Position numbers and translations under genes: made by a program. This document shows positions 17,424 to 18,500 of a stretch of DNA of 20,790 bases, piece by piece (the first letter of the stretch is position 1; each line of letters begins with the position of its first letter). The notes under the pieces were generated by a model. That model made no database searches and had not been told where the DNA came from. It was given only the letters and a program-made list of their open reading frames with translations. Where the stretch lies: positions 1-20,790 of the IMG/VR virus record IMGVR_UViG_2695420685_000016; one strand, given 5' to 3'. This stretch comes from a virus (taxonomy: Duplodnaviria; Heunggongvirae; Uroviricota; Caudoviricetes).

Positions 17424-18500
17424 TTACCCCCTGAAGCCCGGCGGAATTTCGTTATCCGGTTCAGAAATATGATTCACACAACGCTGGTTGTTCGTGCCGC
17501 TTACCGGGAGCAACCAGGGGTTCTCAAAATTCCGGTCCGGTCCAAAAAACGTCGTCGCTCGCTGAACAAATTCCGTTCCCGTTTTCCCGGTAGCCGCCAA
17601 GTATCTTGCGTAACGCCTCACGCCATCCAGCATGGCCTCTGGTGGCACCCCCTCGCGTAATCTGGCCTTCCATGCACTGAAAGCGGATTTCTTCGGGTTT
17701 GCTCCGGCACGCAACGGGTACTCCCGCCAGACCTGTTCGAACACATCCGGATAATCCACTCGTCCCACAGACAGCCCGGTGTTTTCCGGGACTACCCGAT
17801 CGGCTTCCCGCTGAATGGCGGAATCGGCTTCGGGCTGCTGCAGTTGGTGTGATTGCTCCAGCCTTGCGGTCATCACCTGCTGCACAGCGCCCGAATCGGC
17901 TTTCAGCGCATACGCTGAATCGGCTTCCGGTGTCGTGCCTGCTGGCTGACCAGGATTGACGGTCTGAACATCCCCTGCCTGGTTCGTGGCGTTTTTTACG
18001 CCATGGACCATAGTGTTTTGATCTTCTTGATCTGTATCTTTATCTGTATCTTTATCTGTCGTGACTCGTCGTGACATGTGCGTGACATTTCGTGACGCGC
18101 CGTGACAATCGCCATTTTGTTCCCGCTTTCTTTCCCTCTCTCGCTGCGCCCTCTTGCGCTCTGCAGGAGATTTTGCGGTTTGCGAAATATTGCCGTTGTC
18201 CTCTTTAAGCACCTGGCGTTTTTCCCATCCAGTGATTAAATCACCATCAAGTACCCGCCCCTGCATCGTCTGCAAAATTGAATCAATTACCTCTTCTGTC
18301 ACGTCGAGCGCACTTGCCAAATCTTCTGTCGTGACATCAATGTGACCTCGCGTGACATTTCGTGACGCGCTCACCAGGAGGTGGATATACACTGCCATCA
18401 CTGTTGCAATTGGCTGCCCTGACACCCTGGCAATTGTTCGCCACTTAGGGTCATTTGGCATGTCATGCCATAATCTGAGCCAGGCGTTAGCCATACTCAC
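17424..18500 (-). CDS. Phage replication initiation protein (O-like / YdaU-like) with origin iterons inside the gene
   Basis: 358 aa; two arrays of CGTGAC repeats lie within the coding sequence (encoding ASRNVT twice), as ori-lambda lies within O; position after the cro/cII-like genes. Confidence 0.65.
   Translation of the reverse strand: MSMANAWLRLWHDMPNDPKWRTIARVSGQPIATVMAVYIHLLVSASRNVTRGHIDVTTEDLASALDVTEEVIDSILQTMQGRVLDGDLITGWEKRQVLKEDNGNISQTAKSPAERKRAQRERERKREQNGDCHGASRNVTHMSRRVTTDKDTDKDTDQEDQNTMVHGVKNATNQAGDVQTVNPGQPAGTTPEADSAYALKADSGAVQQVMTARLEQSHQLQQPEADSAIQREADRVVPENTGLSVGRVDYPDVFEQVWREYPLRAGANPKKSAFSAWKARLREGVPPEAMLDGVRRYARYLAATGKTGTEFVQRATTFFGPDRNFENPWLLPVSGTNNQRCVNHISEPDNEIPPGFRG
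18030..18106. repeat. 12-bp tandem repeat (ATCTGTATCTTT x2.5) followed by five CGTGAC iterons at 10-11 bp spacing; candidate replication origin
   Basis: Tandem repeat 18030-18060; CGTGAC at 18060, 18070, 18081, 18091, 18101; one helical turn apart. Confidence 0.6.
18330..18366. repeat. Second iteron array (four C/TGTGAC repeats at 10-11 bp spacing)
   Basis: CGTGAC/TGTGAC at 18330, 18341, 18351, 18361; an inverted copy GTCACG at 18297-18302. Confidence 0.55.

What the first reader, a model, noticed from the sequence alone, without database searches (positions are those of the whole stretch)
18030..18366. Two phased iteron arrays and a 12-bp tandem repeat inside the replication initiator gene
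Five CGTGAC repeats at 10-11 bp spacing (18060-18106), preceded by ATCTGTATCTTT x2.5, and a second array of four repeats about 270 bp away (18330-18366) all lie within the rep ORF. This mirrors ori-lambda inside O but with a different repeat architecture: a short 6-bp core phased by one helical turn, in two separated clusters. The repeats also force repeated peptide motifs (ASRNVT twice, DKDTDKDTD).
Basis: seen in the sequence. Interest (0 to 1): 0.5.

Follow-up and report, generated by a model that had tools for sequence, protein, structure and literature searches.

The report
Prophage replication origin inside its initiator gene
The repeats are real and almost certainly form the replication origin of a lambdoid prophage, written into the coding sequence of its own initiator gene; this principle is well known, but here there is an unusual second array of binding sites that is conserved across a very large, unstudied phage family.

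Summary
Observation confirmed. Nine of the window's 14 CGTGAC sites lie within 310 bp of the rep gene (17424-18500, minus strand). There are five at 18060-18106, three exact plus one TGTGAC at 18330-18366, and one inverted copy at 18298-18303. A 12-bp AT-rich tandem repeat sits at 18025-18059.

Comparative evidence shows selection on the DNA itself. In 22 relatives sharing 63-77% of residues, codons inside the cores are almost invariant (top-codon frequency 0.98 against 0.54 elsewhere). In 81 relatives, 74 have the linker array and 58 the N-terminal array. The core differs by clade (GTCACG, GTAAC, CGAACGC, GCAACG, GTGACG) but is the same in both arrays of one gene. The linker array is followed in 72 of 73 genes by an AT- and purine-rich AGATAA-type tract that is read in different frames.

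This gives the layout iterons, unwinding element, hairpin, all within the disordered linker between a winged-helix N-domain and a swappable C-domain. The same logic is seen in lambda O, SPP1 G38P and pSK41 RepA. The distinctive part is the second array, encoded in a surface loop of the DNA-binding domain.

Rep binding and origin activity are inferred, not shown. I rate it a new variant of a known kind, of moderate interest.

The parts
17424..18500 (-). rep gene ('phage replisome organizer'). The ORF starts at GTG 18500; the likely start is ATG 18494 (MANAWLRLWHDMPNDPKW...), giving 356 aa.
   Evidence: ORF. It matches phrog_3729 over its full length at E = 2e-256. NCBI names it 'phage replisome organizer'. 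The gene is 98-99% identical in the isolated phages Evi, Tritos and vB_EcoS-689R5.
18117..18494 (-). Codes for the N-terminal winged-helix domain and basic helix (residues 1-126), the presumed iteron-binding domain.
18330..18366 (-). Array 1: four direct repeats (GTCACG x3, GTCACA x1) at spacings of 10, 10 and 11 bp. They encode residues 43-55, which are the end of helix 3 and the loop before the helix-turn-helix.
   Evidence: Positions. Codons inside the cores are invariant in 22 relatives. The loop position and a pLDDT dip are seen in the model. An insertion of 21 nt (two repeats, 7 codons) occurs in E. coli variants.
18298..18303 (+). A single inverted copy of the core (GTCACG on the + strand), 27 bp promoter-distal of array 1, within codons D64-V65-T66.
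   Evidence: Position. The Val65 codon GTG is invariant in 19 of 19 sequences. The copy sits at the same gene position (nt 193 or its equivalent) in most GTCAC-clade genes but not in other clades.
18060..18106 (-). Array 2: five direct GTCACG repeats at spacings of 10, 10, 11 and 10 bp. They encode residues 130-145 of the disordered linker and form the presumed core iteron array of the origin.
   Evidence: Positions. An equivalent array is present in 74 of 81 relatives, with a clade-specific core. The region is predicted disordered.
18014..18059 (-). AT-rich, purine-asymmetric tract (sense strand ACAGATAAAGATACAGATAAAGATACAGATCAAGAAGATCAAAAC; the 12-bp tandem repeat; two GATC sites). This is the presumed DNA-unwinding element and encodes TDKDTDKDTDQEDQ.
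   Evidence: Tandem repeat. GC content is 0.30 at 18020-18059, the minimum within the gene. In 72 of 73 relatives the 40 nt after array 2 are richer in AT than the gene (0.65 against 0.43) and richer in purines (0.74 against 0.56). The tract is built of AGATAA, AGATAC or AGAGAA units read in different frames.
17980..18010 (+). Inverted repeat or hairpin directly after the AT-rich tract (TGGTTCGTGGCGT-TTTTT-ACGCCATGGACCA).
   Evidence: Detected (I2). The single-stranded DNA fold has z = -5.06 on the + strand and -3.1 on the - strand. It is kept in 7 divergent relatives with paired changes, including genes with unrelated N-terminal domains.
17427..17759 (-). Codes for the C-terminal domain (about residues 246-356), the presumed host-replisome recruitment module. 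It ends in a DnaT-like tail, SEPDNEIPPGFRG (17427-17465).
   Evidence: Helical, with pLDDT 88-98 for residues 250-316. It matches phrog_1701 'DnaD-like helicase loader' at 8.6e-63 and phrog_9327 'primosomal protein'. The tail matches the DnaT C-terminus. This part alone is shared at 82% identity with Stx phages that have a different N-domain.

Best explanation
The region is the replication origin of a lambdoid (Qin/Rac-like) prophage, embedded in the gene of its own initiator.

Shown by sequence comparison: the 6-bp GTCACG cores, the AT-rich AGATAA-type tract and probably the adjacent hairpin are under selection as DNA, independently of the protein they encode. The core sequence also co-varies with the initiator's N-terminal domain.

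Inferred mechanism:
1. Monomers of the winged-helix N-domain bind successive cores, one per helical turn (mean period 10.2 bp), on one face of the DNA.
2. The five-copy array 2 nucleates an oligomer next to the AT-rich, strand-asymmetric tract, which melts.
3. The hairpin-forming sequence just beyond it may mark the exposed single strand.
4. The C-terminal domain, with its DnaT-like tail, brings in the host DnaB-DnaC. The window has no phage helicase loader, unlike most relatives.
5. Array 1, about 230 bp promoter-proximal, lies in codons for a tolerant surface loop of the N-domain. It is a second landing pad for the same protein. It most likely cooperates with array 2 by looping. Because it sits 130-170 nt into the gene, it may also let Rep throttle its own transcription.
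For: - Clustering and phasing of the cores. Spacing within arrays across the family is 10 bp (192 cases) or 11 bp (38 cases), mean 10.18.
- Synonymous sites. In 22 genes from Escherichia, Aeromonas, Pseudomonas, Bordetella, Serratia and others (63-77% aa identity), the 8 degenerate codons inside array-1 cores have top-codon frequency 0.98 and entropy 0.13 bit. The 54 other conserved degenerate codons have 0.54 and 1.44 bit (Mann-Whitney p = 7e-6).
- Reading frames. The core is read in all three frames.
- Co-variation. Of 81 relatives, 74 have array 2, 58 have array 1 and 57 have both. The core is the same in 50 of those 57, against a shuffled-partner mean of 21.9 and maximum of 33.
- Enrichment. 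A core defined from array 2 alone occurs at 21.6 per kb in the array-1 region. Elsewhere in the gene it occurs at 0.3-2.5 per kb.
- Unwinding element. It follows array 2 in 72 of 73 genes (Wilcoxon 6e-14) and the same DNA motif is read as DKDK, DTDT, IREE, RLDK or EAEA.
- Domain structure. Winged-helix N-domain, disordered linker carrying array 2, unwinding element and hairpin, then a helical C-domain.
- Modularity. The N-domain and its arrays travel together, combined with different C-domains and partners: DnaC-like, primase-helicase, DnaB or lambda-P-like.
- Precedents. The same layout is experimentally established for SPP1 oriL in gene 38 (PMC5737612, PMC6316719; sequence checked), for pSK41 RepA (PMC5703833) and for ori-lambda (PMC6022878).
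- Viability. Isolated phages carry the same gene and arrays.
Against: - No experiment links this Rep to these repeats or shows origin firing here. I found no paper on this family.
- Array 1 is absent or undetectable in 16 of the 74 relatives that have array 2, so it cannot be universally essential.
- The looping or autoregulation role of array 1 is inference only. Evidence for helical register between the arrays is suggestive but confounded.
- The role of the DnaT-like tail in recruiting DnaB-DnaC is not established even for DnaT itself (PMC13377028).
Confidence: 0.78

Rival explanations
1. Only array 2, the AT-rich tract and the hairpin form the origin. Array 1 is a control element, not part of initiation. 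Rep bound 130-170 nt into its own gene would act as a transcriptional roadblock (autoregulation). Alternatively it would pair with array 2 or with sister copies to limit firing, as in the handcuffing of the P1 incA/incC type.
For: Array 1 is dispensable in part of the family: 16 of the 74 genes with array 2 lack it. It has no AT-rich tract of its own. It lies early in the transcript. In the GTCAC clade it is accompanied by a conserved inverted copy, which is reminiscent of the inverted repeats used as operators by plasmid Rep proteins (general knowledge of iteron plasmids). This rival overlaps with the best explanation rather than excluding it.
Against: No promoter overlaps it; the only promoter-like match nearby is weak and lies in array 2 on the opposite strand. 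Nothing computational separates a positive role from a negative one. Its gap to array 2 tends toward multiples of about 10 bp, which would fit either role.
Confidence: 0.3
2. The repeats reflect selection on a repeated peptide or low-complexity protein segment (SRNVT, DKDT) and have no function as DNA.
For: The peptides ASRNVT and DKDTDKDTD do repeat, and the linker is disordered and low in complexity.
Against: Synonymous positions inside the cores are frozen while flanking codons drift. The same core is read in three frames. The AGATAA tract is conserved as DNA while being translated in different frames into different peptides. The encoded loop tolerates 7-residue and larger insertions.
Confidence: 0.02
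3. The arrays are bound by a different protein, such as a host factor or a neighbouring phage protein like the CII/YdaT-like or DUF977 protein, and not by Rep.
For: No binding data exist. The neighbours include DNA-binding proteins.
Against: The core changes with the clade of the Rep N-domain across hosts from Enterobacteria to Burkholderiales, whatever the neighbouring genes are. No further array occurs elsewhere in the window. The N-domain and arrays are inherited as one block while the C-domains are exchanged.
Confidence: 0.04
4. Array 1 is a by-product of gene conversion or duplication from array 2 and has no function of its own.
For: An exact 20-bp duplicate links the two arrays in the window. 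Both arrays end with ...GTCACGACAGA (D6). Copy number varies among close relatives.
Against: Array 1 keeps its position, copy number (3-4) and frame pattern, with near-invariant synonymous sites, across genera sharing 63-77% protein identity. It tracks the clade-specific core in at least five core types. Neutral sequence would have decayed.
Confidence: 0.05

Closest known systems
ori-lambda inside gene O of phage lambda
   Same: The origin lies inside the initiator gene, in the segment between the DNA-binding N-domain and the C-domain that contacts the helicase-loading partner. There are four iterons followed, in the direction of transcription, by an AT-rich unwinding region of about 39 bp. 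In-frame deletions of that region kill the origin but not the protein (PMC6022878, PMC8022706).
   Different: Lambda iterons are 18-bp inverted repeats, each bound by an O dimer. Here the sites are asymmetric 6-bp cores in direct orientation, one per helical turn. Lambda has a single array, whereas here there are two about 230 bp apart. There is no sequence relationship to O (no Pfam hit). The window has no P-like partner.
SPP1 oriL inside gene 38 (replisome organizer G38P)
   Same: The origin is experimentally shown to lie inside the organizer gene, with short repeats (AB boxes) bound by G38P and an adjacent AT-rich unwinding element (PMC5737612, PMC6316719). In the SPP1 sequence the repeats have a period of about 11 bp (GAAACGACAC / GAAAAAGACAC). 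They are followed by an AT-rich 9-bp tandem repeat in the linker, which is the same layout as array 2 plus the 12-bp tandem repeat. NCBI gives the window protein the same name.
   Different: The family profile shows no detectable similarity to G38P (hhalign probability 0.1). SPP1 has no array in the N-domain coding part; its second G38P-binding site, oriR, is about 13 kb away. SPP1 also encodes its own loader and helicase.
RepA_N plasmid initiators (pSK41 Rep)
   Different: The window protein has no Pfam RepA_N hit. It is a phage of Gram-negative bacteria, not a plasmid of Gram-positive bacteria. It has two arrays, and the C-domain is related to DnaT/DnaD-like modules rather than being a DnaG-binding domain.
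Phage L / P22 gene 18 origins
   Same: These are lambdoid phages whose initiator genes carry family-specific iterons. Phage L gene 18 has six imprecise 11-bp repeats (TGTCCAACGGA), that is, short repeats at one-turn spacing (PMC8022706).
   Different: The proteins are unrelated, a single array is reported, and the partner is a DnaB-type helicase.
P1 plasmid incC/incA (from general knowledge, not tested here)
   Same: Two separate arrays of the same iteron are bound by one initiator. One array lies in the origin and the other acts in control by pairing.
   Different: The P1 arrays flank repA rather than lying inside it. The iterons are 19 bp. The comparison is an analogy for what array 1 might do.

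Membership tests
Iteron-type origin embedded in its initiator gene (kind: lambda O, P22/L gp18, SPP1 G38P, pSK41 RepA) | Three or more copies of a short repeat in one orientation at about one helical turn (or multiples) of spacing | tested here: met
   There are 5 and 4 copies at 10-11 bp spacing. The family-wide mean period is 10.18 bp.
Iteron-type origin embedded in its initiator gene | AT-rich unwinding element directly next to the iterons | tested here: met
   GC content is 0.30 at 18020-18059. The tract is AT-rich in 72 of 73 relatives, 0.65 against 0.43 for the gene.
Iteron-type origin embedded in its initiator gene | Origin lies in the part of the gene coding for the inter-domain linker | tested here: met
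   Array 2, the AT-rich tract and the hairpin fall in residues 127-245, which are predicted disordered. Array 1 does not: it lies in the N-domain loop, residues 43-55.
Iteron-type origin embedded in its initiator gene | Repeats selected as DNA and specific to the initiator's DNA-binding domain | tested here: met
   Synonymous-site freeze, clade-specific core shared by both arrays, and N-domain and arrays inherited together.
Iteron-type origin embedded in its initiator gene | Initiator binds the repeats; the fragment supports replication with initiator in trans | not testable with these tools
   This needs EMSA or footprinting and a mini-origin assay. I found no published data for this family.
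Lambda O protein family (Pfam Phage_rep_O) | Sequence match to the family model; 18-bp palindromic iterons bound by dimers | tested here: not met
   No Pfam family matched at E <= 0.01. The cores are direct and asymmetric. The 'DNA replication protein O' labels in some phage records are not supported.
SPP1 G38P / N-terminal phage replisome organizer | Sequence similarity of the N-terminal domain | tested here: inconclusive
   No Pfam hit. hhalign of the 5-sequence profile against G38P gave probability 0.1. There are weak PHROG matches to 'replisome organizer' families phrog_4880 (5e-6) and phrog_5968 (2e-4).
RepA_N / DnaD-NTD winged-helix fold | Structural match of the N-domain | tested here: inconclusive
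DnaT (primosomal protein I) | Full-length match to the DnaT equivalog model | tested here: not met
   The score is 19.4 bits against a cut-off of 201. Only residues 335-358 match the last 24 residues of DnaT. The 'primosomal protein I' labels in phage records rest on this tail.
PHROG 3729 'replication initiation protein' | Full-length profile match | tested here: met
   E = 2e-256, with residues 3-358 matching profile positions 1-356 of 356.

The most novel reading that the evidence does not exclude
The family uses a bipartite origin. A second iteron array is written into the codons of a surface loop of the initiator's own DNA-binding domain. It is held in helical register with the main array and is required, by looping about 230 bp of DNA around a Rep oligomer, for origin opening or for self-limiting Rep synthesis. 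Together with the shared unwinding tract and hairpin, this would define a general 'origin cassette' grammar: N-domain plus iterons, then AGATAA-type tract, then hairpin, then C-domain. Lambdoid phages would recombine at the joints of this cassette. Origins and incompatibility types of thousands of prophages could then be read directly from sequence. I also considered a more radical version, that the loop peptide encoded by array 1 itself reads the iteron. It is disfavoured, because relatives with the same array-2 core but no array 1 have unrelated loops (L076, L078, L082 and L073).
Probability: 0.3. Interest if true: 0.55.

Novelty: new variant of a known kind. Interest (0 to 1): 0.42.

Why it matters
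This replication module is very common. At least part of the gene is found in 2,699 of 5,426 complete E. coli genomes, and the N-domain family has 3,838 clusters in public data. Yet public records annotate it only as 'hypothetical' or mislabel it 'protein O' or 'primosomal protein I', with no origin marked.

The comparison gives a sequence-level rule for locating the origin and predicting its specificity class (the core type) in such prophages. It gives a clean natural example of DNA-level and protein-level constraints sharing the same nucleotides. It also identifies a testable second array whose role, cooperative or regulatory, is unknown.

It does not overturn any principle: origins inside initiator genes have been known since lambda.

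Tried and rejected
- **Pfam and NCBIfam scans of Rep.** No family matched except the DnaT tail, so no curated family could be assigned.
- **Profile comparison with SPP1 G38P.** hhalign found no similarity.
- **Literature searches.** I searched for this iteron (GTCACG plus iteron), for replisome-organizer origins, and for Rac oriJ or ydaU. I found nothing on this family.
- **Helical register between the two arrays.** The gap from the last core of array 1 to the first core of array 2 is within -3 to +2 of a multiple of 10 in 42 of 44 genes, and in 23 of 24 distinct values. However, relatedness and array growth in 10-bp steps confound this, so I do not claim it.
- **The loop peptide as specificity determinant.** Rejected, because relatives with the same array-2 core but no array 1 have unrelated loops.
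- **An overlapping antisense gene as the cause of the codon freeze.** Rejected. Each CGTGAC contains TGA, and the 10/11-bp spacing puts stops in all three + strand frames across both arrays (positions; my arithmetic).
- **An internal promoter or terminator reading.** Only weak consensus matches were found, at the rate expected by chance.
- **A second distant array in the window (an oriR analogue).** None exists; the five other CGTGAC sites are isolated.
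Full report
**What is there**

The finding lies in a minus-strand ORF, 17424-18500 (358 codons from GTG; 356 from the likely ATG at 18494). Its neighbours form a lambdoid early-right operon:
- a CI-like repressor (19322-19741, + strand);
- a Cro/YdaS-like gene (18988-19314, - strand);
- a CII/YdaT-like gene (18566-18991, - strand);
- rep itself;
- a DUF977 'Ren-like' gene (16961-17383, - strand).

Rep matches PHROG 3729 'replication initiation protein' over its full length (E = 2e-256). NCBI names it 'phage replisome organizer'. At least part of the gene is found in 2,699 of 5,426 complete E. coli genomes. It is 98-99% identical in the isolated phages Evi, Tritos and vB_EcoS-689R5. 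In Tritos the region sits next to dicF and dicB, so the context is Qin-like. No record annotates an origin there.

**Checking the observation**

- CGTGAC (+ strand; GTCACG in the sense of rep) occurs at 18060, 18070, 18081, 18091 and 18101.
- It also occurs at 18330, 18351 and 18361, with TGTGAC at 18341.
- One inverted copy lies at 18298-18303.
- Nine of the window's 14 sites sit in 310 bp, where about 0.13 would be expected from the shuffles.
- TRF finds TCTTTATCTGTA x2.9 at 18025-18059 and the period-10 array.
- A 20-bp exact duplicate (18080-18099 and 18350-18369) produces the two ASRNVT peptides.

In gene order, the four-copy array (here called array 1) comes first, at codons 43-55. The five-copy array (array 2) is at codons 130-145 and is directly followed by the tandem repeat, which encodes TDKDTDKDTDQEDQ.

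**Is the DNA itself under selection?**

I collected relatives of the N-terminal domain from annotated phages and from one genome per species.
- Annotated phages: Aeromonas pAEv1818, Pseudomonas P7869, a Manatee Spring contig and Ralstonia phage Hennie.
- Genomes: 80 loci, L005-L084, from Enterobacteria to Burkholderiales, Sphingomonads and a few others.

Aeromonas and Pseudomonas phages with only about 70% protein identity keep both GTCAC arrays at the same gene positions and in the same frame pattern (2, 0, 1, 0). They do so although they carry different C-domains and partners, a DnaC-like loader and a primase-helicase respectively.

A codon alignment of 22 GTCAC-clade genes (63-77% identity) gives the clearest result.
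- The eight degenerate codons inside the cores are essentially fixed: GCG, TCA, GTC, ACG, GGT, CAC, GTC, ACG.
- Their top-codon frequency is 0.98 and their entropy 0.13 bit.
- The 54 other conserved degenerate codons in the domain drift freely, at 0.54 and 1.44 bit (Mann-Whitney p = 7e-6).
- The spacer codons between cores vary.
- The Val65 codon, which lies in the inverted copy, is also invariant (19 of 19).

An overlapping antisense gene cannot explain this. Each CGTGAC contains TGA, and the 10/11-bp spacing closes all three + strand frames across both arrays.

**Co-variation across the family**

More distant relatives lack GTCAC but have their own core at the same two places:
- CGAACGC in the Manatee contig, Janthinobacterium, Variovorax and others;
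- GCAACG in Ralstonia phage Hennie, Cupriavidus and Burkholderia;
- GTGACG in Paraburkholderia and Caballeronia;
- GTAAC in Pantoea and Enterobacter.

I searched each half of the gene independently in 81 genes.
- 74 have array 2, 58 have array 1 and 57 have both.
- In 50 of those 57 the core is the same in both arrays. Shuffled partners give a mean of 21.9 and a maximum of 33. Most of the seven 'different' cases are ties or register shifts in my simple caller.
- With the core defined from array 2 alone, its density in the array-1 region is 21.6 per kb. In the rest of the gene it is 0.3-2.5 per kb.

Within arrays the spacing is 10 bp (192 cases) or 11 bp (38 cases), with a mean of 10.18. Arrays have 3-6 copies. 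Among close E. coli relatives, copy numbers change in ways that preserve the reading frame. Array 1 gains 21 nt, which is two repeats or seven codons (VTTCHGVSR). Array 2 and the DKDT unit also gain or lose copies.

**The unwinding element and hairpin**

The 40 nt after array 2 are richer in AT than the gene in 72 of 73 relatives (0.65 against 0.43; Wilcoxon 6e-14). They are also purine-rich on the sense strand (0.74 against 0.56).

The tract is made of AGATAA, AGATAC or AGAGAA hexamers. In different genes these are translated as DKDK, DTDT, IREEE, RLDK or EAEA. The DNA motif is therefore conserved while the frame and the peptide are not. In the window it is the GC minimum of the gene (0.30).

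Directly beyond it lies a 13-pair inverted repeat (17980-18010). As single-stranded DNA it folds with z = -5.1 on the + strand, where two pairs are G.T. It is retained in seven divergent relatives. The synonymous change GTT/GTC in one arm is matched by GAA/GAC in the other, and the inner GGCG/CGCC is invariant. The seven include two genes whose N-terminal domains are unrelated. With eight sequences, and with a conserved peptide (LVHGEK) over the same bases, I treat this as probable, not proven.

**The protein**

AlphaFold with a 74-sequence alignment gives three parts:
- a confident N-domain, residues 1-98, with a basic helix at 110-126;
- a disordered stretch, residues 127-245;
- a confident helical C-domain, residues 250-316.

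Array 1 encodes the end of helix 29-45 and the loop 46-55 that precedes the helix-turn-helix. This is the only dip in confidence within the domain. It is also the place where relatives carry insertions. Array 2, the AT-rich tract and the hairpin all lie in the disordered linker.

The C-domain matches PHROG families called 'DnaD-like helicase loader' and 'primosomal protein'. Its last 24 residues match the C-terminus of E. coli DnaT. Only this C-terminal part is shared (82% DNA identity) with Stx phages whose N-domains differ. The joint lies at the hexamer tract.

**Mechanism**

Shown: the cores, the AT-rich tract and probably the hairpin are selected as DNA. The core also co-varies with the N-domain clade, independently of host, C-domain and neighbouring genes.

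Inferred:
1. N-domain monomers bind one core per helical turn on one face of the DNA.
2. The array-2 complex melts the adjacent AT-rich, strand-asymmetric tract.
3. The C-domain recruits host DnaB-DnaC. The window has no loader gene, whereas relatives with the same C-domain are usually followed by a DnaC-like gene.
4. Array 1 is a second binding platform that cooperates with or restrains array 2 by looping. It may also impede transcription of rep.

Array 1 is missing in 16 of the 74 genes that have array 2, so it is an accessory element and not part of the minimal origin.

**Comparison with known systems**

The logic is that of ori-lambda in O: four iterons followed by a 39-bp AT-rich region, and a linker that is dispensable for the protein (PMC6022878). 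It is also that of three other systems:
- phage L gene 18, with six 11-bp repeats (PMC8022706);
- SPP1 oriL in gene 38 (PMC5737612, PMC6316719);
- pSK41 RepA, where a winged-helix N-domain binds Rep boxes centrally in its gene, the linker is the translated origin and the C-domain is host-specific (PMC5703833).

I checked the SPP1 sequence directly. Repeats of about 11 bp are followed by an AT-rich 9-bp tandem repeat in the linker, the same layout as array 2 and its tract. SPP1 has no array in the N-domain coding part.

By sequence, the window's protein is not a member of the lambda O, RepA_N or DnaT families. Its relation to G38P is undetectable with my small profile. The differences from all of these systems are the asymmetric 6-bp core at about 10.2-bp spacing and, above all, the conserved second array inside the codons of the N-domain loop.

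**Verdict**

This is a new variant of a known kind. It is a widespread but unstudied origin type, with good prospects for direct tests. It is not a surprise at the level of principle. Interest: 0.42.

Noticed in passing
window 17980-18010 (also L168-L174): A 13-pair inverted repeat lies directly after the AT-rich tract. It is conserved in 7 divergent relatives with paired arm changes, including genes with unrelated N-terminal domains. It folds best as single-stranded DNA on the + strand (z = -5.1). It could be a priming or primosome-assembly signal, or only the footprint of the conserved LVHGEK peptide.
   Followed up: partly
L167 2120-2977 (E. coli K-12 Rac ydaU): Rac YdaU has a different N-domain (DUF1376) but the same plan. 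Central TGTTCAAAC repeats are followed by AATAAAGATACAGATAAAGATCTAAAAACAGATC (NKDTDKDLKTD). It also has the same C-terminal AIPPGFRG tail. The unmapped Rac origin (oriJ) may therefore lie inside ydaU.
   Followed up: partly
window 18014-18059; hits H60-H63: The GATAAAGATACAGATAAAGAT tract finds 82-89% DNA matches inside replisome-organizer genes of Enterococcus phage phiEf11 and Pseudomonas phage AH02. It also matches an unannotated Oenococcus phage record, OE33PA6. This suggests that the hexamer tract is a recurrent origin feature far beyond this family.
   Followed up: no
window 17427-17465: The last 13 residues of Rep (SEPDNEIPPGFRG) are nearly identical to the C-terminal tail of E. coli DnaT (SEPDNHIPPGFRG). 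The same tail ends Rac YdaU and many relatives. It is probably a short docking motif for a host replication protein.
   Followed up: partly
window 16547-17383: The window has no DnaC-like, P-like or DnaB-like gene after rep. Instead it has a DUF977 / 'Ren-like' gene and a zinc-ribbon ORF. Relatives with the same C-domain are followed by an IstB/DnaC-like gene (five of the six loci fetched by exact protein look-up) or a lambda-P-like gene (one). This module may therefore rely entirely on host DnaC.
   Followed up: partly
window 18330-18366 and 18025-18106; proteins P0002, P0003, P0012, P0022, P0068: Repeat copy number is polymorphic among close E. coli relatives, always in frame. Array 1 gains 21 nt (two repeats), array 2 gains or loses units, and the DKDT unit gains or loses 12 nt. 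Rep length ranges from 302 to 374 aa.
   Followed up: partly
window 15024-15349: A hok/sok-type toxin-antitoxin locus. Rfam finds sok at 15174-15349 (-). The overlapping ORF 15024-15236 (-) encodes a Hok-like peptide (MKQQKAMLIALIVICLTVIV...).
   Followed up: no
window 11045-11234, 11934-12007, 12112-12184: Rfam finds the sRNA STnc100 and two tRNA genes on the minus strand, in the late-gene side of the prophage.
   Followed up: no
phage records: Public annotations of this gene disagree. Labels include 'DNA replication protein O', 'Primosomal protein I', 'hypothetical protein' and 'N-terminal phage replisome organiser'. The first two are not supported by family tests.
   Followed up: yes
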